A DNA stretch of 6,802 nt, taken from the IMG/VR virus record IMGVR_UViG_3300011982_000008, positions 1-6,802 of that record; one strand, written 5' to 3'. Position 1 is the first letter of the stretch; each line of letters opens with the position of its first letter. Positions 1 through 6,802 of the stretch are shown piece by piece. The position numbers and the translations under genes were made by a program. This stretch comes from a virus. The notes below the pieces were generated by a model that was given only the letters and a program-made list of their open reading frames with translations, was not told the origin of the DNA and made no database searches.

Positions 1-77
1 CAGACCCCCACCCCTGTACTAGACAAACAGAATTACTCACGCGCACGCACGTATAGAGGTCACGCGCGCACGATTAG
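1..77. repeat. Terminal redundancy of the linearised circular genome (identical to 6726-6802)
   Basis: I compared the 77 nt at 1-77 (cagacccccacccctgtactagacaaacag...cgattag) base by base with 6726-6802 and they are identical. A direct terminal overlap of this kind is an assembly signature of a circular molecule. The unit genome is ~6,725 nt. Confidence 0.95.
38..72. repeat. Two alternating purine-pyrimidine (Z-DNA-prone) tracts: CACGCGCACGCACGTATA (38-55) and CACGCGCGCACG (61-72)
   Basis: Alternation is perfect for 18 and 12 nt, separated only by GAGGT. The two tracts are also imperfect direct repeats of each other (CACGCGC(A/G)CGCACG). They sit immediately next to the G4/hairpin element in the circular map. 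Confidence 0.5.
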
Positions 78-90
78 TAATATAGGGGTG

Positions 91-120
91 AAAAACTGAG
101 CAAATGTGCTGTCAGTTTTT
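91..120. terminator. Bidirectional terminator-like hairpin flanked by A5/T5: AAAAACUGA-gcaaaugugcug-UCAGUUUUU
   Basis: The 9-nt arms aaaaactga and tcagttttt are reverse complements, with an extra GCA/TGC pair inside the loop. Read on either strand it gives a stem followed by UUUUU. It is positioned where a minus-strand transcript leaving VP2 would end, after crossing 850 down to 121. The stem is short and AU-rich at its ends, so strength is uncertain. Confidence 0.35.
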
Positions 121-129
121 CCAATAGTA

Positions 130-420
130 AACAAGGCGATGGCATAACGCGGAGGGTTATGCAGATAACGATGTATGCTTTGCGAATAGTCCGCTCGATG
201 TGGTCGCTAGCGCTATGCACTTCGCTTACGCTCAGCTTAAGGCCGCTCGTCGCGGCCTGTTTTCGCTACCACTTCGCTGCATCACCTCACTTCGTTCGGT
301 TCTTCGCTCGTGCTAACGCTCAAACAAAGGGTGTATAAGGGCGTTCGTTCCTCACGCTATGCGCTCATAAATTTCGCGCGTGTGTCTTACGCGCCGTTCG
401 TCACGGCGCGCGCTCGTTGC
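130..420. other. Non-coding GC-rich island (~57% GC against ~35-40% elsewhere) with CGCT/TTCGCT motif saturation and multiple short GC stems
   Basis: Per-60-nt GC counts are 53%, 62%, 50% and 63%. There are ~15 copies of CGCT in 230 nt (CACTTCGCT at 218 and 270, TTCGCTCG at 303). Hairpins are GGCCGC-ucguc-GCGGCC followed by UGUUUU (241-263), GCGCG-N9-CGCGC (375-393) and CGCGCCG-uucguca-CGGCGCG (389-409). By hand translation the minus (genic) strand has stops in all three frames. The plus strand has only a 59-aa ORF (159-338) of implausible composition. Confidence 0.5.
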
Positions 421-452
421 AGAGTTAATGGTAAATGTTAATAAGTATTTAC

Positions 453-503
453 AAATGGTTCGATATTTATATTTTGCGTTAAAATATGTATTAAAATGGT
501 TCG
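453..503. repeat. Second direct-repeat pair: AAATGGTTCG at 453-462 and 494-503 (41-nt spacing)
   Basis: Exact 10-mers, each followed by a T/A-rich run. They lie between the GC island and the 27-nt repeats. They look like a possible binding-site array together with the GTTAA motifs. Confidence 0.4.
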
Positions 504-514
504 TTTTTTATAGT

Positions 515-594
515 GTCGCGTAAAATTTGTTAACTGCAACACCTAAAATATTAACAATATTTAGATTGTCGCGTAATTTATGTTAACTGCAACA
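515..594. repeat. Iteron-like direct repeats: two 27-nt copies, GTCGCGTAAAATTTGTTAACTGCAACA (515-541) and GTCGCGTAATTTATGTTAACTGCAACA (568-594), 53 nt apart
   Basis: They are 24/27 identical. Blocks of 9 and 12 identical nt flank a 6-nt variable core. Each is preceded by TAG(T/A)T. Each contains the HpaI palindrome GTTAAC and the partial palindrome TGTT-N6-AACA. They are embedded in a region with recurring GTTAA(T/C) motifs (424, 436, 530, 551, 583, 626). Confidence 0.55.
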
Positions 595-710
595 AAACAA
601 AATAACACCACACTTCACAGCGCAGTGTTAATAAAAAATAAATAAACTAATCAATGAATGAACTTAAAAACCAAAAAACTTAAATTTGCAATAAACTAAA
701 TGAACTAAAT

Positions 711-854
711 ATGAATTACAACGAAAATTACTACAAAGAAAAAGCAAAATTGTTCAAAACAATTCGAATTGTACTCATCTGTATAGCATTAATACCTATC
801 ATAATGATAATAATGATATTCGGAATGATGGCAATACAAACAATACTTGATTAA
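711..854 (+). CDS. Antisense small single-pass membrane protein ORF (47 aa, MNYNENYYKEKAKLFKTIRIVLICIALIPIIMIIMIFGMMAIQTILD)
   Basis: ATG at 711, TAA at 852-854; I translated it by hand. The product has a charged N-terminus and then a ~27-residue uninterrupted hydrophobic helix. It is the only plausible ORF on the strand opposite all other genes, and it converges on the VP2 stop with a 3-nt overlap. AT-rich DNA readily yields Ile/Leu/Met-rich ORFs, and microviruses are not known to use the antisense strand, so confidence is low. Confidence 0.2.
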   Translation: MNYNENYYKEKAKLFKTIRIVLICIALIPIIMIIMIFGMMAIQTILD

Positions 855-2163: not shown

Positions 2164-2198
2164 ATAAAAATAAGGCTGCCCGCCTAATGGCAGGCAGC
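2164..2198 (-). terminator. Intergenic hairpin plus U-tract (intrinsic terminator/attenuator-like) just upstream of the VP2 ATG
   Basis: Plus-strand positions 2175-2184 (gctgcccgcc) pair with 2189-2198 (ggcaggcagc). That gives a 10-bp GC-rich stem with one mismatch and a TAAT loop. On the minus strand it is followed by CUUAUUUUUAU. It lies between the 38-aa ORF stop (2206) and the VP2 ATG (2158), and overlaps the GTG-initiated N-terminal extension of the long ORF. Confidence 0.4.
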
Positions 2199-2205
2199 AC
2201 AAGGG

Positions 2206-2786: not shown

Positions 2787-4442
2787 TTAAATACTAGGTA
2801 AACCATCAACAGACATATCACTTATCTTAGTAATTCCAAAATAACAGCCACCAAACAATTGGTCAGTCAACTGACTACCATTGTAAGACACTGCAAAGAC
2901 AGAATCACACCATTTAGGACTGATTTTCAACAAATCAATACCAAGAGTCTTGTTAGCCGTAAAATCGTCAGACAAAGACCGATTACGGGCAATAGTCCAA
3001 AAAGACAATGGTGCAAAGGCACCAAATTGACCGTGGTTAACATCCATAGCTGTTTTGTATTCAGAATACCGCAGTTGCCAACCAAGGGGGTAATCAGTGG
3101 AAGGAACAGCCTTTGGTGTAGTATCACTAGGAGTCGGAATCATATCGGTAACATTATGGAGCAAAAGAGGCTGCATACCTAAATTTTCAAACTCAGGTAT
3201 AAAATAATCACCGCGAGTTACTTTTTCAACAAAGGGGTCAACACGAGTACTATCATATTGCATGGCAGGCACAGCAGAGTAGATACACATCAAAACACCA
3301 TGTTCCTTTGCATCAAATGAAATGTGACCAGAACCTTCAGCTATAGATTTGCCGACAACCTTGCCAAGATAACCGGCATCAGAAGTAGTACCAGAAGTGC
3401 CAGATGTCTGGGTAACATCACCTACATTAAAATTGCTGTCAAAGCCACCAATATAGAATACTTGACCATCACGACCTTCAGACACTTTTACACCAAAATG
3501 CGCCTCAACTTGTTCGGCATAAGTCTTACCGGCACGCATAGAAATGGACAACATCTTATCCAATGCAAATGCAGAGCGAATAGAAGACACATCAATACGC
3601 CCATCATTATTTGTCCTCTTATAGAATACACTCTTATTATCAAGGGTACCAAATGAGGAATTATTACCAGAGATACTGAGAGCATTACCTAAATTGGAGG
3701 GCATGGAAATGAGAGGAGAAGGGCGCAGATTAGTCAAATAGTCAGAGGGAGCATTACGATAACGAAGTTTCAAAAATCTATCAAAAAAAGATTTACCAGT
3801 GAAAAAGCCGCTAACATCATCAAAATTAAATGAAGCTACATCATAAGGCTCAAAAATGTTGTTACGATAGAAATCGGAATATATTTTCTGATAGGCGGCT
3901 GCACGAAATGGAGTAACAGAGCCGTTGAAGATATAATCAAACTTCTTAGTTTTACCCAAGTCAACAGGATAACCATAGCCAAAAAGGTCAAGCAATCTAA
4001 TGGCATTATCTTTCGAAGAGAATCCAAAAATATCTTTGGCAGTCTGGTCAGTATCAGGCAGCTTAAGAATATGTTCAAACAATTTTGAACGCTCTACACG
4101 AGGAACAGAAAGGTCAGAAGAATATTTACCGATAAATATAGAAGACTTGACATCATTCGTATTTACAAGGAACTGGTCAAACAAATGCCACATTTGAGAA
4201 TAAGGCACAAAAAAGAACTCATAAACACCGCGAAGTGACATGAATGCAGCACTATTCATTGGGAGAGTACGCATAAAATCACGCGCATTTATCTCAACAT
4301 GGTCATGCGGAATCAAATCCAAAGACAACACAGGCAGCAAGGCACCAACAGGGGCGGTAAACATGTGCCGTTGGGATAAATCAAACGCATTTCGCGGTCG
4401 ATTAGCCTTACTAGGCCGAATATCCAATTTTTTAACACTCAT
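2787..4442 (-). CDS. Major capsid protein (Microviridae VP1/F-like), 551 aa
   Basis: ATG at 4442-4440 and TAA at 2789-2787, both verified. The N-terminus NRPRNAFDLSQRHMFTAPVGALLPVLSLDLIPHDHVEINARDFMRTLPM...GVYEFFFVPYSQMW matches the conserved Microviridae VP1 pattern (R-N-x-F-D-L-S...G-x-L-P...D...P-x-D...R...FFVP-x-x-x-W). Size is typical for VP1. No SD upstream. Confidence 0.9.
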   Translation of the reverse strand: MSVKKLDIRPSKANRPRNAFDLSQRHMFTAPVGALLPVLSLDLIPHDHVEINARDFMRTLPMNSAAFMSLRGVYEFFFVPYSQMWHLFDQFLVNTNDVKSSIFIGKYSSDLSVPRVERSKLFEHILKLPDTDQTAKDIFGFSSKDNAIRLLDLFGYGYPVDLGKTKKFDYIFNGSVTPFRAAAYQKIYSDFYRNNIFEPYDVASFNFDDVSGFFTGKSFFDRFLKLRYRNAPSDYLTNLRPSPLISMPSNLGNALSISGNNSSFGTLDNKSVFYKRTNNDGRIDVSSIRSAFALDKMLSISMRAGKTYAEQVEAHFGVKVSEGRDGQVFYIGGFDSNFNVGDVTQTSGTSGTTSDAGYLGKVVGKSIAEGSGHISFDAKEHGVLMCIYSAVPAMQYDSTRVDPFVEKVTRGDYFIPEFENLGMQPLLLHNVTDMIPTPSDTTPKAVPSTDYPLGWQLRYSEYKTAMDVNHGQFGAFAPLSFWTIARNRSLSDDFTANKTLGIDLLKISPKWCDSVFAVSYNGSQLTDQLFGGCYFGITKISDMSVDGLPSI

Positions 4443-4541: not shown

Positions 4542-6245
4542 TTAATCAATTTTGCGACTACCAAATAAAACACTATTATTCAACTTCTTAGACTTATTAC
4601 GTTTAGCCAAGCGTTGAAGTTGCTGATTAACATACACTTCAAAAAATGGAGTAGAACAAATGGAATTAAAAACTACTTTATAATAGTCCAATTTACCATA
4701 AGTATAAAAATCACCAAATTCGCACAACTCATCGAGGAATACACGAACATAGGGGTTAGTCATATCAATAGGACTATCACCAAACATAGGCATATTTTCA
4801 GACAATAGCGGATAAGCATCTATCATAGCAGGCTGAAAACCAACCTCATCAACCAAATCATTAAACAAAGTATAGAATTGTATCAATTGGTCAGACTTAC
4901 GCAGAACATCAAACTTATCTAACATCATCACATAAGCGTGAATATCATCTACATAGGGATAAAATCGAGTAAAATTAACCAAACGAACAACTCGCCAAGC
5001 ATGCCGAGAACAATACCAATTTTGGTCAGTATCCATATCAAGAATATTATACTCAAACTCATGATAACGCTTAAGCCAATTCCTATATTTCATATTCGGA
5101 AACTTTCGCAGGTAATCCGTTTCCGAAATTTCATATACAGAATTGTGCGCAGAACTATTTGAATAATAGATAATAGACAATTCTAAGTCTTGTTGCCATT
5201 CAGCTCGATGTCTAGAATAGAATGAATACAATTGTAATTTAAAGTCAAAAGATAAGTCACTATATCCTTTACATTTGCGGAATAAGGAATTGCACAAATC
5301 TGAGTTAAGCGGAATATCAAAGTGTTCGAATTGTTGAGATTGTCGGTTATAGACTTCTCGACCAACGCGGTAAGTTCCTCGATAGACATTTTCGAATATT
5401 TCCTCTCGGTCAACTTTGTAACAACCAATAACTGGGCTTTTAGACTGAATATGAAACGGGCGCGAAGACTTATACTCCAAAACTTGAGGTAAACCAAGAT
5501 TGCCACTAACATACTCCGCAACATAATAGGCTGTGTTCGCATCACACAATTTGATGTAATCTTTGGTAAGGTGTATATTCGCATACGGCCGAAAGTGAAA
5601 AGAATTGCGCTGTCCTCTAACACGTTCGAATTGACCCCACGAACGTACGACAATATCCTTAATCTCTCTGAGAATAACCTCATTATCGAAGAATAAGACA
5701 CCATGATAATGCGGACGATAGGTCTGCGGTCCATATTCGGATGCAATGAAATAACGAATTTTTTTGTCATCATCAATTATATTTAGTTTATCTATCCAAA
5801 AGCGAACACGCTTAATAAAATTCTGAATATCCTTCTTACAACAAGTAGCAAACATATCACCATCACAATCACCTTGAATAACAGGAAGATATGTTTCATA
5901 ATCAATATTCCATTTACCTTTAACCTTATCAAAGTAATTTAAAGGACAAGAATTAAACATGTATTCAACACGACCAATAGGACGTATTTGAGGGCAATCG
6001 TTAGAATCCAAGAATCTTTCCCAACGTGGAATAAACTGATTATCGTAAGTCAAAGTAAACATCATTGAATACTTATGCTTATTTATTTCCTCACGAACAC
6101 GATTAGATTGTTTTGAAGCGGCAGCATTAAGACACGCAGCACACTTACCACAAGGGACAAACATATCCTCGTGTGTCCAGCGGTTAAATGTACGAATAGG
6201 AGCAATACAACCGCCAAATACTTTATAAGCACTAGAATCCATCAT
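4542..6245 (-). CDS. Rolling-circle replication initiator protein (Microviridae VP4/Rep, HUH endonuclease), 567 aa
   Basis: ATG at 6245-6243 and TAA at 4544-4542, both verified on the minus strand. The translation carries the N-terminal Cys cluster PCGKCAACLN (zinc-finger-like, as in gokushovirus VP4), RCR motif I FTLTYD, HUH motif II RPHYHGVLFF and motif III AYYVAEYVSG (paired catalytic Tyr, YxxxY spacing). The ATG overlaps the TGA of the upstream 96-aa ORF (ATGA). At 567 aa it is much longer than the ~300-350 aa typical of gokushovirus VP4, with a ~230-aa C-terminal extension of unknown function. Confidence 0.9.
   Translation of the reverse strand: MMDSSAYKVFGGCIAPIRTFNRWTHEDMFVPCGKCAACLNAAASKQSNRVREEINKHKYSMMFTLTYDNQFIPRWERFLDSNDCPQIRPIGRVEYMFNSCPLNYFDKVKGKWNIDYETYLPVIQGDCDGDMFATCCKKDIQNFIKRVRFWIDKLNIIDDDKKIRYFIASEYGPQTYRPHYHGVLFFDNEVILREIKDIVVRSWGQFERVRGQRNSFHFRPYANIHLTKDYIKLCDANTAYYVAEYVSGNLGLPQVLEYKSSRPFHIQSKSPVIGCYKVDREEIFENVYRGTYRVGREVYNRQSQQFEHFDIPLNSDLCNSLFRKCKGYSDLSFDFKLQLYSFYSRHRAEWQQDLELSIIYYSNSSAHNSVYEISETDYLRKFPNMKYRNWLKRYHEFEYNILDMDTDQNWYCSRHAWRVVRLVNFTRFYPYVDDIHAYVMMLDKFDVLRKSDQLIQFYTLFNDLVDEVGFQPAMIDAYPLLSENMPMFGDSPIDMTNPYVRVFLDELCEFGDFYTYGKLDYYKVVFNSICSTPFFEVYVNQQLQRLAKRNKSKKLNNSVLFGSRKID
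5183..5776 (-). CDS. Candidate overprinted gene: 197-codon ORF in the +1 frame inside Rep (ATG at 5773)
   Basis: Same strand as Rep. The frame offset (6245-5776=469, remainder 1 mod 3) shows it is the +1 frame. It is open for 594 nt in a ~37% GC genome, where other off-frame ORFs top out at 65-80 codons. It starts TTG-ATG-ATG (MMMTKKF...), encodes a basic Leu/Ile/Arg-rich product, and spans the Rep HUH and Tyr motifs. It is analogous to gene B inside gene A of phiX174. Confidence 0.3.
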   Translation of the reverse strand: MMMTKKFVISLHPNMDRRPIVRIIMVSYSSIMRLFSERLRILSYVRGVNSNVLEDSAILFTFGRMRIYTLPKITSNCVMRTQPIMLRSMLVAILVYLKFWSISLRARFIFSLKAQLLVVTKLTERKYSKMSIEELTALVEKSITDNLNNSNTLIFRLTQICAIPYSANVKDIVTYLLTLNYNCIHSILDIELNGNKT

Positions 6246-6532
6246 AATATACGATATACAATCCTACATTTATGGTCAATAGTACTAGAGTCAGCAAACT
6301 CAAGGACTTCAAAATCAATAAGAGTTTTGAGAGAGCCAAATAATTTGTCAAGTTCAGAGGTATATCTGTCATCATAATACAAGATAAAGCCTACTGAAGT
6401 AGGATGCAAATGAATTAACTCAAAATCACTTCCAAGAAGTGTCCTAAGAAACAGGCGGTAAGAATAATACTGAAATGTTCTCATCTTTAAGTTATTTTTT
6501 AATTCAACGGCAAAGATAGAAAAAATAAACAT
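6242..6532 (-). CDS. Hypothetical protein, 96 aa, translationally coupled to Rep
   Basis: ATG at 6532-6530 is verified. The TGA at 6244-6242 overlaps the Rep ATG at 6245-6243, giving the classic ATGA coupling overlap. It is on the same strand as all structural genes and is the first ORF downstream of the putative promoter region. No recognisable motif. It is not strongly basic, so it is probably not a J/VP8-type DNA-binding protein. Confidence 0.5.
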   Translation of the reverse strand: MFIFSIFAVELKNNLKMRTFQYYSYRLFLRTLLGSDFELIHLHPTSVGFILYYDDRYTSELDKLFGSLKTLIDFEVLEFADSSTIDHKCRIVYRIL

Positions 6533-6697
6533 AATGCCAATTATGAAAATGAAATTTATCGAATATATTTAACAAATATTACTACACCCACCCACCTTTT
6601 TAACAAAAATATGAAATTCCCAAAAACACACATACAATAAAACTTCAATAGAAGAATATAAGTTAAAGAGAATTAGATAAATACACATGTTAAGATA

Positions 6698-6728
6698 CTG
6701 GGGGACGGGGCTCCGCCCCATCCCCCAG
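6698..6728. promoter_or_regulatory. Strong G/C hairpin in the control region (14-bp stem, one C·A mismatch, TCC triloop)
   Basis: CTGGGGGACGGGGC-tcc-GCCCCATCCCCCAG; I checked the pairing position by position. It lies ~165 nt upstream (on the transcribed strand) of the first gene (96-aa ORF, then Rep). It is the only such GC-rich structure in the otherwise AT-rich upstream region. Candidates are a Rep-recognised origin hairpin, a packaging signal or a terminator of read-round transcription. Confidence 0.5.
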
Positions 6729-6739
6729 ACCCCCACCCC
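6716..6739 (-). other. Canonical G-quadruplex motif on the minus (predicted virion/mRNA-sense) strand: GGGG-T-GGGGG-TCT-GGGGG-AT-GGGG
   Basis: Read directly from the sequence. The plus strand has C-tracts 6716-6719, 6722-6726, 6730-6734 and 6736-6739 with 1-3 nt spacers (i-motif-capable). The complement therefore has four G-tracts of at least 4 with loops of 1, 3 and 2 nt. The motif overlaps the 3' arm of the hairpin at 6698-6728, so the two structures are mutually exclusive. Confidence 0.5.
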
Positions 6740-6802
6740 TGTACTAGACAAACAGAATTACTCACGCGCACGCACGTATAGAGGTCACGCGCGCACGATT
6801 AG
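6726..6802. repeat. Second copy of the terminal overlap (= 1-77); not an independent locus
   Basis: Exact duplicate of 1-77. Confidence 0.95.

What the first reader, a model, noticed from the sequence alone, without database searches (positions are those of the whole stretch)
1..850. Unusually large and complex non-coding control region (~1.3 kb with 6533-6725, ~20% of the genome) for a microvirus
Microviridae genomes are normally packed almost end to end. In circular order this one has a G4/hairpin (6698-6739), Z-prone tracts (38-72), a bidirectional terminator-like hairpin (91-120), the GC island (130-420), two families of direct repeats (453-594) and an A-rich spacer, all without a convincing gene. 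At ~6.7 kb the genome is also at the upper size limit for the family. Packing so many distinct structural elements into one intergenic region argues for a regulatory or replicative module. Reading the sequence does not explain it.
Basis: partly seen in the sequence, partly recalled or inferred. Interest (0 to 1): 0.55.

Follow-up and report, generated by a model that had tools for sequence, protein, structure and literature searches.

The report
Conserved control region of temperate microvirus
The long "empty" stretch of this small single-stranded DNA phage is a conserved control region holding the site it uses to integrate into Prevotella-type bacteria, gene start and stop signals, a tiny overlooked membrane-protein gene on the opposite strand, and a deeply conserved hairpin-rich core that most likely serves as its replication origins.

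Summary
The window is a circular 6725-bp microvirus; all large genes are on the minus strand. The gap is real but smaller than claimed (about 1.04 kb, 15.5%; about 0.95 kb truly non-coding). It is normal for this lineage: complete relatives have 600-1250-nt gaps at the same place.

Comparison with about 60 relatives, including prophages in Hoylesella/Prevotella, resolves several parts.
- **attP (6524-6551):** a dif-like site. Prophage ends are hybrid phage/host sites. This kind of site is already published.
- **Promoter boxes:** two Bacteroidetes-type -7 boxes at fixed positions either side of attP.
- **Terminator (603-630, minus strand):** 99.7% paired on the gene-sense strand against 81.5% on the other.
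- **Small gene (711-854, plus strand):** a transmembrane ORF with its own promoter, conserved in 34 of 34 relatives.
- **Core (90-162):** a 27-mer plus a hairpin with at least 13 covarying perfect stems and a fixed loop. It persists in relatives with only 25-31% capsid identity.
- **GC island:** a modular array of covarying hairpins. It holds nearly all stable single-strand structure in the genome.

My inference is that the core is the origin nicked by Rep and the island is the complementary-strand origin. This is untested. There is no significant similarity to the phiX174 origin and no Rfam match. The region appears to be a new variant of a known kind and is moderately interesting.

The parts
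6242..6484 (-). First gene of the Rep operon (ORF80). The mechanical ORF of 96 aa starts at 6532, but the likely start is the ATG at 6484-6482.
   Evidence: The gene caller in the 97%-identical relative L012 gives 80 aa. A conserved -7 box lies between attP and this ATG.
6511..6518 (-). P_rep: Bacteroidetes-type -7 promoter box TATCTTTG, 26 nt upstream of the ORF80 ATG
   Evidence: It sits a fixed 5 nt from the attP left arm in window, L001, L009, L071, L067, L014, L012 and L013. It stays attached to the Rep operon in prophages.
6524..6551 (.). attP: dif-like 28-mer AATAAACATAA | TGCCAA | TTATGAAAATG (11-6-11)
   Evidence: Prophages L057, L014 and L047 are flanked by hybrid sites made of one phage arm and one host arm. 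The host right arm is always TTATGATAAAT. The same kind of site was published for Bacteroidetes microviruses (PMC3091885).
6585..6611 (-). Conserved block: second -7 box TATTTTTG (6604-6611) followed by GGTGGGTGGGTG (6585-6596). Candidate upstream promoter (P_up) that reads across attP into the Rep operon.
   Evidence: 82-99% identical in six relatives. The box is at a fixed 52 nt from the attP right arm in all A/A2/D genomes and lies on the far prophage end in L057, L014 and L047. The promoter function is inferred.
6698..6739 (-). G/C-rich hairpin (6698-6728) plus a C-run (6729-6739). On the packaged strand this is a G-run that repeats the 5' arm of the hairpin.
   Evidence: Stems covary: window CTGGGGGACGGGGC..., L001 TTCGGGGGCGGG...CCCGCCCCCGAA, L041 TTGGGGGCGGGG.... 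Other groups keep a hairpin plus repeated arm but place it next to the terminator. It is the most stable 100-nt window of the packaged strand. The single non-Watson-Crick pair is T.G on the minus strand and C.A on the plus strand.
38..72 (.). Two alternating purine/pyrimidine tracts: CACGCGCACGCACG (38-51) and CACGCGCGCACG (61-72)
   Evidence: Read directly from the sequence. Conserved in groups A and D. L092 and L093 have (CA)n or (CG)n at the same place. Function unknown.
90..121 (.). Hairpin 1: A-run, CTGA...TCAG, T-run. It has the shape of a bidirectional terminator. Its right arm is part of the 27-mer.
   Evidence: Present in groups A, A2, B, D and E, with a compensating change in L079 (GAAAAAAT / ATTTTTTC). 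Absent in group C, L092, L093, L096 and the distant relatives, although the right-arm sequence is kept there.
110..136 (-). Core 27-mer TGTCAGTTTTTCC-AATAGT-AAACAAGG. On the packaged strand it reads CCTTGTTT-ACTATT-GGAAAAACTGACA. Candidate Rep recognition and nick site (viral-strand origin).
   Evidence: Invariant blocks across 38 distinct copies. A recognisable version is in the same orientation and synteny in relatives with 25-31% capsid identity. It is present in every complete circular genome examined and is always found with microvirus genes. Its function is inferred.
142..162 (.). Hairpin 2: 7-bp stem GCATAAC/GTTATGC with loop GCGGAGG (consensus NCGGNGG)
   Evidence: 97% of cells paired; 6 of 7 pairs changed on both sides; 0 of 500 shuffles reach the score; the slid controls collapse; no wobble pairs at all; at least 13 different stems.
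163..425 (.). GC island: a modular array of GC-rich hairpins (for example 241-257 and about 389-412) with YCGTYA-like loops. Island b (359-425) is nearly invariant.
   Evidence: Indels are not multiples of 3, and whole hairpin modules are gained or lost. Stems show compensatory changes. Island b is 97-99% identical where capsid genes are 66-71%. No strand asymmetry. No Rfam match.
426..600 (.). AT-rich segment with repeats: AAATGGTTCGWTWTTTATA at 453-471 and 494-512, and a 35-nt unit at 507-541 and 560-594 (a 53-nt tandem duplication)
   Evidence: The first pair is conserved in group A. The duplication is found only in window, L051 and L012. The whole segment is absent from L141, L070 and L041, and group D has unrelated sequence there, so it is dispensable.
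590..630 (-). Intrinsic terminator of the structural operon: 11-bp stem (603-630) including conserved tandem U.G/G.U pairs, loop UGUGAA, and a U-rich tail (602-590)
   Evidence: 29 distinct copies. The plus strand is 81.5% paired, and all 59 non-pairs are A.C. The minus strand is 99.7% paired with 58 G.T wobbles. The tail has 8.2 T in 12 nt. The terminator scan found it independently.
681..688 (+). P_TM: -7 promoter box TAAATTTG for the small plus-strand gene
   Evidence: A TAnnTTTG box lies 38-50 nt after the terminator hairpin in 34 of 34 distinct relatives.
711..854 (+). Small transmembrane protein gene (47 aa) on the strand opposite all other genes. It converges on the pilot gene and overlaps its stop.
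   Evidence: ORFs of 26-72 aa with a strong hydrophobic segment sit at the same position in relatives of all groups. Gene callers called it in L012 and L014-L017. There is a weak Pfam DUF6814 hit below threshold.

Best explanation
The region is the cis-acting control region of a temperate microvirus of Prevotellaceae. This is an Alpavirinae-type phage that has no integrase.

Read along the packaged, gene-sense strand (the window's minus strand), the order after the pilot gene is as follows.
1. The antisense of a small transmembrane gene that has its own promoter.
2. The intrinsic terminator of the structural operon.
3. An optional AT-rich repeat segment.
4. A modular array of GC-rich hairpins.
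5. A deeply conserved core made of hairpin 2, the 27-mer CTTGTT-N6-8-GGAAAAACTGACA, and hairpin 1.
6. Purine/pyrimidine tracts and a G-rich hairpin.
7. A promoter box, the dif-like attP, a second promoter box, and then the Rep operon.

**Shown by comparative evidence:** attP and its recombination geometry; the terminator and the strand on which it folds; the small gene and its promoter box; and the existence, covariation and deep conservation of the core and island hairpins.

**Inferred:**
- The core is the viral-strand origin. The two-tyrosine HUH Rep would bind the conserved 3' block and nick at or near CTTG, or in the neighbouring hairpin.
- The GC-hairpin island and the G-hairpin are the parts of the incoming single strand that remain folded. 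Host priming enzymes would start complementary-strand synthesis there.
- Integration at attP separates the upstream promoter from the Rep operon, which would lower replication-gene expression in the prophage.
For: **attP.** Hybrid phage/host 28-mers with a CATAA-N6-TTATG core lie at both ends of prophages L057, L014 and L047. The circular forms (window, L001, L009) carry phage arm plus phage arm. No integrase was found among the ORFs. There is published precedent (PMC3091885) and experimental proof in gokushoviruses (PMC7062461).

**Terminator.** 99.7% against 81.5% pairing on the two strands, a U-tail, and an independent hit in the scan.

**Small gene.** 34 of 34 relatives have the promoter box at a fixed distance, followed by a transmembrane peptide.

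**Core.**
- Invariant blocks in 38 copies.
- Hairpin 2 covaries strongly and has no wobble pairs.
- It is retained in relatives with 25-31% capsid identity, in the same orientation and synteny.
- It is present in all complete circles and never found without microvirus genes.
- It lies about 350-450 nt upstream of rep, a usual place for a double-strand origin (established knowledge of rolling-circle plasmids).
- Rep has FTLTYD, PHYHGVLF and YVAEYVSG, matching phiX174 A (RLHFHAVHF, FYVAKYVNK).

**Island.**
- 14 of the 15 most stable single-strand windows lie in this region.
- Stems show compensatory changes.
- Perfect Watson-Crick stems with no strand bias fit DNA hairpins.
- Island b is 97-99% identical while the genes are 66-71%.

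**Precedents.** The phiX174 primosome hairpin, and conserved intergenic hairpins in other microviruses (PMC9865509).

**Promoter boxes.** They sit at invariant distances either side of attP, and P_up is split from the operon in prophages.
Against: - There is no direct evidence for nicking or priming.
- The phiX174 origin 30-mer matches the core no better than chance: 12-15 of 30, rank about 30 to 600 per genome.
- The island shows no clear strand preference, so an RNA role is not excluded.
- Hairpin 1 is missing in several groups.
- The AT repeats and many island modules are dispensable, so much of the region's bulk may be non-essential.
- TAnnTTTG boxes are not enriched in the genome, 12 found against about 9 expected, so the promoter calls rest on positional conservation only.
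- High identity of some modules may partly reflect recombination between lineages and not only constraint.
- phiX174 has its origin inside gene A, so an origin inside rep is not excluded here.
Confidence: 0.55

Rival explanations
1. The GC island, alone or with the core, is transcribed as a structured non-coding RNA. It could be a small RNA ending at hairpin 1 on the minus strand, or a read-through 3' UTR of the structural operon. Such an RNA would regulate lysogeny, the small membrane-protein gene or host genes.
For: - Hairpins covary.
- The region folds better than shuffles as RNA on the minus strand, z = -2.85.
- Alifold slightly favours the minus strand.
- Hairpin 1 has the shape of a bidirectional terminator and would end such a transcript.
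- The phage lacks any recognisable repressor, so an RNA regulator would fill a gap.
Against: - No Rfam match in the window or in 10 relatives.
- No conserved promoter box was found on either strand upstream of the island (and reading).
- Hairpin 2 and the island stems have no G.U pairs, whereas the true RNA hairpin next door has 58.
- The structural operon has a strong terminator before the island.
- Modules are gained and lost freely.
Confidence: 0.2
2. The conserved core is read by host proteins and not by the phage Rep. It would be the complementary-strand priming site, recognised by a primase, PriA or RNA polymerase, or a terminator/insulator. The viral-strand origin would lie elsewhere, for example inside rep as in phiX174.
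For: - Hosts of the whole clade are related Bacteroidales, so a site recognised by the host could also stay conserved while phage proteins diverge.
- Hairpin 2, with a fixed loop and variable stem, resembles recognition hairpins of single-strand initiation sites. Conserved loops in intergenic hairpins of other microviruses were interpreted this way (PMC9865509).
- There is no similarity to the phiX origin.
Against: - The motif's invariant blocks are single-stranded sequence, not only structure, and they keep a fixed orientation relative to rep at a constant short distance upstream of it. This is typical of Rep-recognised double-strand origins.
- Hairpin 1 is not universal, so a pure terminator role does not explain why its right arm is conserved.
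Confidence: 0.2
3. The region is largely non-functional filler: foreign or host-derived DNA recently inserted, or hidden protein-coding genes that were missed.
For: - The GC content of the island (0.52-0.56) differs from the genome (0.37).
- Modules are exchanged between lineages.
- One small gene had indeed been missed.
Against: - The region is present at the same position across the clade and in distant relatives.
- Several pieces are more conserved than the genes.
- Stems are kept by compensatory changes.
- Indels are not multiples of three, and no ORF other than 711-854 is kept.
- No Pfam or PHROG hit for the island ORFs.
- The element is never found outside microvirus contexts.
Confidence: 0.04

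Closest known systems
dif-like attachment sites of integrase-less phages that use host XerC/XerD: Bacteroidetes microvirus proviruses BMV1-7 (Alpavirinae), enterobacterial gokushovirus EC6098, and Vibrio CTXphi/VGJphi
   Same: A 28-bp 11-6-11 site with the inner CATAA...TTATG palindrome. The prophage is flanked by hybrid phage/host sites. There is no phage recombinase. The site lies in a non-coding region next to rep.
   Different: Nothing essential differs; this part is a further example. Xer dependence has not been tested in any Bacteroidetes host. I found no clear second, inverted dif-like site of the CTXphi kind here.
Intergenic region of Ff filamentous phages (M13/f1/fd)
   Same: A single non-coding region of about 0.5 kb in a small ssDNA phage. 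A terminator is followed by a series of hairpins that together hold the complementary-strand origin, the viral-strand origin nicked by the phage Rep, and an AT-rich enhancer (established knowledge, from memory). The overall logic and order are closely parallel.
   Different: No sequence similarity was tested or claimed. The region here also carries attP and an opposite-strand gene. No packaging-signal role is expected for a microvirus. The functions here are inferred.
phiX174 30-nt viral-strand origin (CAACTTG|ATATTAATAACACTATAGACCAC) recognised by protein A
   Same: The Rep has the same HUH and two-tyrosine motifs. The motif is about 27-30 nt on the packaged strand, with a conserved CTTG block, an AT-rich spacer and a conserved 3' block, next to a GC hairpin. 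Like the phiX origin, it is one of the most conserved sequences in the clade.
   Different: There is no significant sequence similarity. It lies in an intergenic region upstream of rep, not inside the rep gene. The flanking hairpin is on the other side.
Complementary-strand origins of ssDNA replicons: the phiX174 primosome assembly hairpin, the phage G4 primase origin, and conserved intergenic hairpins of reekeekee-/roodoodooviruses
   Same: Stable hairpins in the packaged strand of an intergenic region, kept by compensatory substitutions, with loops more conserved than stems (PMC9865509).
   Different: This region is much larger and more modular, with several hairpins and whole modules gained and lost. 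It is GC-rich within an AT-rich genome. The host machinery in Bacteroidetes is unknown.

Membership tests
Xer/dif-exploiting integrative phages (IMEX type) | A 28-bp site with two 11-bp arms and a 6-bp spacer, and an inner CATAA / TTATG palindrome resembling bacterial dif | tested here: met
   Window 6524-6551 is AATAAACATAA|TGCCAA|TTATGAAAATG. The same architecture is present in L001, L009, L071, L057, L014 and L047.
Xer/dif-exploiting integrative phages (IMEX type) | The integrated copy is flanked by hybrid sites, each made of one phage arm and one host arm | tested here: met
   L057: TAAAATCATAA|TGCCAA|TTATGAAAATG and AATAAACATAA|TGCCAA|TTATGATAAAT. L014 and L047 are analogous. The host right arm is constant, TTATGATAAAT.
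Xer/dif-exploiting integrative phages (IMEX type) | No phage-encoded integrase or recombinase | tested here: met
   Pfam and PHROG scans of all ORFs of 47 aa or more find only the capsid and Rep. The other ORFs are pilot-like, 137 aa, 80 aa, and small peptides.
Xer/dif-exploiting integrative phages (IMEX type) | Integration depends on host XerC/XerD and targets the chromosomal dif | not testable with these tools
   This needs host genetics. An empty attB and its position at the replication terminus were not examined.
Intrinsic (Rho-independent) terminator | A stable stem-loop on the transcribed strand followed directly by a U-rich tract, downstream of an operon | tested here: met
   603-630 with tail 602-590 on the minus strand. 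It is 99.7% paired, including 58 G.U-type pairs, against 81.5% on the other strand. The tail has 8.2 T in 12 nt.
phiX174-type viral-strand origin | An initiator of the HUH class with two catalytic tyrosines (YxxxY) | tested here: met
   Rep has PHYHGVLF and YVAEYVSG. phiX174 A has RLHFHAVHF and FYVAKYVNK. The HUH segment aligns at E = 0.005.
phiX174-type viral-strand origin | Sequence similarity to the 30-nt origin conserved among phiX174-like phages | tested here: not met
   The best ungapped match at the core is 12-15 of 30, ranking about 30th to 600th among all positions in 15 genomes. I therefore do not file this as a phiX-type origin. It may work like one.
phiX174-type viral-strand origin | Site-specific nicking of the packaged strand by Rep, needed for rolling-circle synthesis | not testable with these tools
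   This needs biochemistry or end-mapping.
Complementary-strand (single-strand) origin of ssDNA replicons | Exceptionally stable secondary structure in the packaged strand, kept by compensatory substitutions | tested here: met
   14 of the 15 most stable 100-nt windows lie in 6641-6725 plus 1-420. Covariation is seen in hairpin 2 and the island hairpins.
Complementary-strand (single-strand) origin of ssDNA replicons | Primer synthesis starts there on single-stranded template | not testable with these tools
   This needs an in vitro priming assay or primer mapping in a Bacteroidetes host.
Known structured RNA families (Rfam 15) | A match to a curated covariance model | tested here: not met
   No hit at E <= 1 in the window and none at E <= 0.1 in 10 relatives. 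No tRNA or tmRNA.
Bacteroidetes sigma-A promoters (-7 box TAnnTTTG) | A -7 box at a conserved position shortly upstream of a gene start | tested here: met
   P_TM is present in 34 of 34 relatives. P_rep and P_up sit at fixed distances from attP. The box is not enriched genome-wide, and transcription starts were not mapped.
Alpavirinae / microviral 'Family 5' (Bacteroidales microviruses) | Capsid phylogeny placing the genome with Bacteroides/Prevotella proviruses; temperate; gene order Rep, capsid, scaffold-like protein, pilot | tested here: inconclusive
   The closest capsids include proteins named from Hoylesella shahii, H. buccalis and Prevotella sp., and many sit on long bacterial contigs. 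Prophages were confirmed. No formal phylogeny against reference Alpavirinae was made.

The most novel reading that the evidence does not exclude
In a phage with no repressor and no integrase, the control region itself would act as the lysis/lysogeny switch.
- Xer recombination at attP physically separates a conserved upstream promoter, and the origin core, from the Rep operon.
- The structural operon reads antisense through the small membrane-protein gene, which would give mutually exclusive expression states.
- The modular GC-hairpin island would be a new class of exchangeable single-stranded DNA or RNA structure cassettes, for example a structured RNA or a decoy acting on host factors or defences, and not merely a priming site.
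Probability: 0.15. Interest if true: 0.7.

Novelty: new variant of a known kind. Interest (0 to 1): 0.45.

Why it matters
Microviruses of Bacteroidales are among the most abundant phages of the human mouth and gut, and almost nothing is known about how they replicate, integrate or choose lysogeny.

This analysis turns an unannotated gap of about 1 kb into a map of testable elements:
- an exact attP with its host partner arm;
- the operon terminator;
- three promoter boxes;
- an unannotated opposite-strand membrane-protein gene;
- a core of about 70 nt that is conserved across lineages whose capsids are only 25-31% identical, and is the prime candidate for the replication origin.

Such a map is needed to build replicons, revive prophages, or engineer these phages for Prevotella or Bacteroides. 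The core motif is also a practical marker. It finds microvirus prophage ends in bacterial genomes, and it explains why assemblies often break in this region.

Tried and rejected
- **Known RNA or tRNA.** Rfam at permissive thresholds on the window and 10 relatives, and ARAGORN, found nothing.
- **Hidden proteins in the island.** ORFs 159-338 (+) and 74-220 (-) have no family hits. They are broken by indels that are not multiples of 3 in relatives. Rejected.
- **Sequence homology of the core to the phiX174 origin.** I first recalled this from memory and then verified the phiX174 sequence. The sliding-match test gave chance-level scores. Rejected as homology and kept only as a layout analogy.
- **Strand test on the GC island.** Folding the same alignment and its reverse complement gave only small differences: -66.0 against -60.6 kcal/mol with RNA parameters and -28.2 against -25.5 with DNA parameters. 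Inconclusive.
- **Invalid and misaligned calls.** An earlier fold_alignment call had one sequence in the wrong orientation and should be ignored. The MAFFT alignment of the terminator in minus orientation was misaligned (A4). I used the gap-free A5 and its exact reverse complement instead.
- **Promoter for an island transcript.** No conserved TAnnTTTG or sigma-70-like site was found.
- **A middle hairpin that would put AACAAG in a loop.** It is clear in group E (9 bp, covarying between L049 and L082) but only 2-4 bp elsewhere. It is not general.
- **GenBank phage similarity.** There is no near match to the genome. Only three matches of 33-42 nt to the region were found, and these led to L002 and L003.
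- **Contigs lacking the core.** They proved to be incomplete or prophage-end fragments containing host DNA. They are not counterexamples.
- **Pattern-scan false positives.** Pattern scans of genomes and metagenomes returned many chance hits, which I removed by requiring hairpin 2. The island-b scan gave three chance hits, L142-L144.
Full report
**What the window is**

Bases 1-77 are repeated at 6726-6802, so the window is a circular genome of 6725 bp. All large ORFs are on the minus strand:
- an 80-96-aa ORF (6242-6484/6532);
- Rep (4542-6245; Pfam PF23343, PHROG 942);
- the major capsid protein (2787-4442; Pfam Phage_F);
- a 137-aa ORF;
- a small ORF;
- a pilot-like protein (851-2158).

It is a microvirus. 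There is no near match among GenBank phages. Capsid homologues are numerous. Many lie on bacterial contigs of 20-300 kb, and some are named from Hoylesella shahii, H. buccalis and Prevotella sp.. The lineage therefore integrates into Prevotellaceae.

**Check of the observation**

Every listed sequence feature is present, and coordinates are given under 'parts'. The numbers in the finding are off.
- The ORF-free gap is 193 + 850 = 1043 nt, which is 15.5% of the genome.
- With the Rep-operon start moved to the ATG at 6484 and the small ORF 711-854 counted as a gene, about 951 nt (14%) is non-coding.
- The gap is not unusual for this clade. L001, L002 and L003 have 640-1030-nt gaps at the same position.
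- In a capsid-based sample of 80 viral contigs, complete genomes at 49% capsid identity or more regularly have 600-1250-nt gaps.
- Published surveys put genome sizes at 3,989-6,723 bp among 81 genomes and note that Alpavirinae are among the longer ones (PMC3394797). A later set has a median of 5,078 and a maximum of 8.3 kb (PMC9239249).

**The attachment site (a known kind)**

In prophages L014-L017, which sit between a host S1-domain gene and fur, the intergenic region is split across the two prophage ends. Both ends carry TAATACCAATTATG.

The junctions resolve as follows.
- The window's 6524-6551 reads AATAAACATAA|TGCCAA|TTATGAAAATG.
- In L057 one junction is host-arm|TGCCAA|TTATGAAAATG and the other is AATAAACATAA|TGCCAA|TTATGATAAAT.
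- L014 and L047 behave the same way.
- L009 is the circular form of the L047 type.
- The host right arm is TTATGATAAAT in every case.
- The two closest relatives of the window, L012 and L013, carry phage-left plus host-right arms, so they are integrated copies.

This is the dif-like att site, with proposed XerC/D-mediated integration, described for Bacteroidetes microviruses (PMC3091885). It was shown experimentally for enterobacterial gokushoviruses (PMC7062461).

**Transcription signals**

*Terminator.* A hairpin at 603-630 was collected from 29 distinct relatives.
- On the window's plus strand the 11-bp stem is 81.5% paired, and all 59 non-pairs are A.C or C.A.
- On the gene-sense strand it is 99.7% paired, with 58 G.T/U wobbles including an invariant tandem UG/GU.
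- The loop is UGUGAA, and the tail averages 8.2 T in 12 nt.
- The terminator scan found it independently.
- It is the intrinsic terminator of the structural operon, and it lies beyond the antisense of ORF 711-854.

*Small gene.* Between 38 and 50 nt beyond the hairpin on the plus strand, 34 of 34 distinct relatives have a Bacteroidetes-type -7 box (TAnnTTTG). An ATG follows it and opens a 26-72-aa peptide with a strong transmembrane segment. Gene callers had called this ORF in L012 and L014-L017. A real small gene therefore sits on the strand opposite all the others.

*Boxes flanking attP.*
- TATCTTTG (6511-6518, minus strand) is 5 nt from the left arm and about 26 nt before the ORF80 ATG.
- TATTTTTG (6604-6611, minus strand) is 52 nt beyond the right arm.
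- In prophages the second box ends up at the far end, pointing into host DNA and separated from the Rep operon.
- The box motif alone is not enriched in the genome: 12 found against about 9 expected. These calls therefore rest on positional conservation, and the promoter activity is inferred.

**The conserved core**

A 27-mer, TGTCAGTTTT(T)CC-N6-8-AACAAG(G), at window 110-136, retrieves relatives from viral, metagenome and genome collections. It is always on the strand opposite the genes and a few hundred nt upstream of rep.

It is followed by hairpin 2 (142-162). Across 38 distinct copies:
- 97% of cells are paired;
- 6 of 7 pairs changed on both sides;
- no shuffle reaches the score, and the slid controls collapse;
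- there is not a single one-sided (wobble) change;
- at least 13 different stems surround a fixed NCGGNGG loop.

Hairpin 1 (90-121) is present in most groups and shows a compensating change in L079. It is absent in others, although its right-arm sequence is kept there.

All contigs with terminal redundancy, which are complete circles, carry the core. Contigs lacking it are incomplete, and several end inside or beside the element.

A covariance model built from the core finds weaker versions in relatives whose capsids are only 25-31% identical. These read TGTCA(C/T)TTTT(G)CC-N7-8-(G/A)AC(A/G)AG plus a stem-loop. All are in the same orientation and lie between the pilot gene and rep.

A non-coding motif that outlasts most of the capsid sequence points to recognition by a conserved protein. 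Rep is the obvious candidate. It has FTLTYD, the HUH motif PHYHGVLF, and the two-tyrosine motif YVAEYVSG. These match phiX174 protein A, which has RLHFHAVHF and FYVAKYVNK.

On the packaged strand the motif reads CTTGTT, then an AT-rich spacer, then GGAAAAACTGACA. This recalls the layout of the phiX174 origin, CAACTTG|ATATTAATAAC|ACTATAGACCAC, which I verified. The resemblance does not survive an objective test. Sliding the phiX 30-mer over 15 genomes gives only 12-15 of 30 matches at the core, ranking 30th to 600th. I therefore propose that the core works like a Rep-recognised origin, but I do not file it as a phiX-type origin.

**The GC island and other structured parts**

*Modular hairpins.* Among close relatives the island (163-425) aligns with large indels that are not multiples of three, and whole hairpin modules are gained or lost. 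One example is a 50-nt hairpin present in L057, L005 and L071 but not in the window.

*Covarying stems.*
- GGCCGC/GCGGCC against GGCCGT/ACGGCC.
- CGCGCCG/CGGCGCG against CGGGCCG/CGGCCCG in L141.
- GGGGGGG/CCCCCCC in L070.
- Loops recur as YCGTYA-like sequences.

*Conservation.* Island b (359-425) is 97-99% identical in L057, L071 and L001. Their capsid genes are 66-71% identical, and the adjacent island a is 76-78%. Module distribution cuts across the capsid groups, so the region is a recombining mosaic containing a few strongly constrained pieces.

*Folding.*
- The region folds better than shuffles: z = -3.3 and -3.0 as DNA, and -2.85 and -1.5 as RNA, for the minus and plus strands respectively.
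- It holds 14 of the 15 most stable 100-nt windows of the packaged strand.
- A comparison of the two strands on identical columns shows no decisive asymmetry.
- Taken together with the complete absence of wobble pairs, this contrasts with the terminator next door and fits hairpins that act as DNA. An RNA role is not excluded.

*Other points.*
- No Rfam family matches.
- The G/C hairpin at 6698-6728 covaries. On the packaged strand it is always preceded by a G-run that repeats its 5' arm. In other groups the same unit sits beside the terminator.
- The AT-rich repeats (426-600) are absent from L141, L070 and L041, and group D has unrelated sequence there, so they are dispensable. The 53-nt duplication is specific to window, L051 and L012.

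**Interpretation**

*Shown:* attP and its recombination geometry; the terminator and its strand; the small opposite-strand gene with its promoter box; and the reality, covariation and deep conservation of the core and island hairpins.

*Inferred:* the core is the viral-strand origin, and the GC hairpins are the complementary-strand origin. The nearest functional analogue is the intergenic region of Ff phages. The phiX174 and G4 origins, and the conserved intergenic hairpins reported in other microviruses (PMC9865509), are further precedents.

*Rivals:* a structured RNA (about 0.2); a core recognised by the host, with the Rep origin elsewhere (about 0.2); and filler or hidden genes (about 0.04).

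*Literature:* I found no paper that describes this region, the core motif or the opposite-strand gene. The search covers open-access text only.

**Verdict**

The finding is a real and conserved feature, but it is ordinary for its lineage, and part of it is already explained in the literature. The undescribed parts make it a new variant of a known kind: the cis-acting control or origin region of a small ssDNA phage. Interest is moderate, because it makes the replication and lysogeny control of a very abundant but unstudied group of human-associated phages directly testable.

Noticed in passing
window 711-854 (+), promoter box 681-688: A small transmembrane protein gene lies on the strand opposite all other genes. 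It converges on the pilot gene and overlaps its stop. The structural operon reads through it antisense before terminating at 603-630, which suggests mutually exclusive expression. The gene might be a lysis, exclusion or lysogeny-associated protein. It has a weak, sub-threshold Pfam DUF6814 hit.
   Followed up: partly
window 2173-2199 (-): A strong GC hairpin, GCTGCCTGCC-ATTA-GGCGGGCAGC, followed by CTTATTTTTATGG on the minus strand, lies between the small ORF (2203-2331) and the pilot gene. It looks like an internal terminator or attenuator. It is the only highly stable single-strand window outside the control region. The mechanical pilot ORF start (GTG at 2200) lies inside the hairpin. The likely start is the ATG at 2158, giving 435 aa as called in L012.
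   Followed up: partly
L012, L076, L011, L063 (contig ends); window about 130-420: Assemblies of relatives often end inside or next to the GC-hairpin island or the 27-mer. L076 starts 20 nt before hairpin 2, and L012 breaks in the island. The structured region seems hard to assemble or sequence, so many public 'complete' microvirus contigs of this clade may lack it.
   Followed up: partly
L057:1860-2300 compared with window 6561-6725 and 1-84: The left part of the control region is 97-99% identical between the window and prophage L057, while their genes are 71-86% identical. L071 has group-A island modules but a capsid of another group. Control-region modules appear to be exchanged by recombination between lineages.
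   Followed up: partly
window 6604-6611 and 6585-6596 (-): A conserved -7 box and a GGTGGGTGGGTG tract lie just outside attP relative to the Rep operon. After integration they sit at the opposite prophage end and point into host DNA, towards fur in L014. This could couple Rep expression to excision, or could affect the neighbouring host gene.
   Followed up: partly
L067, about 270-300 nt before the core, read on the strand that carries the core (minus strand of the locus): This 'viral' contig carries two dif-like sites 35 nt apart: one with the host-type right arm (TTATGATAAAT) and one with the phage-type right arm. It may be a circle excised imprecisely, or an assembly across a prophage junction.
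   Followed up: no
L049 (12480 nt), core at 6178 and 12324: Two copies of the element lie exactly 6146 nt apart in one metagenome contig. This is either a tandem (dimeric) prophage or a concatemer assembly of a circular genome.
   Followed up: no
window 6150-6060 (-), Rep residues about 32-39: The Rep N-terminus has a CGKCAAC cysteine cluster ahead of the HUH domain. The Rep is long (567 aa) compared with typical microvirus initiators. The large C-terminal part has no family hit.
   Followed up: no
L082/L049 core, equivalent to window 121-141: In one group the variable middle of the 27-mer pairs with the spacer before hairpin 2 (CCCTCTTAG-AACAAG-CTAAGAGGG, covarying with CCCTACTT...AAGTAGGG). 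This puts the invariant AACAAG (CTTGTT on the packaged strand) in a hairpin loop. Elsewhere the pairing is only 2-4 bp.
   Followed up: partly
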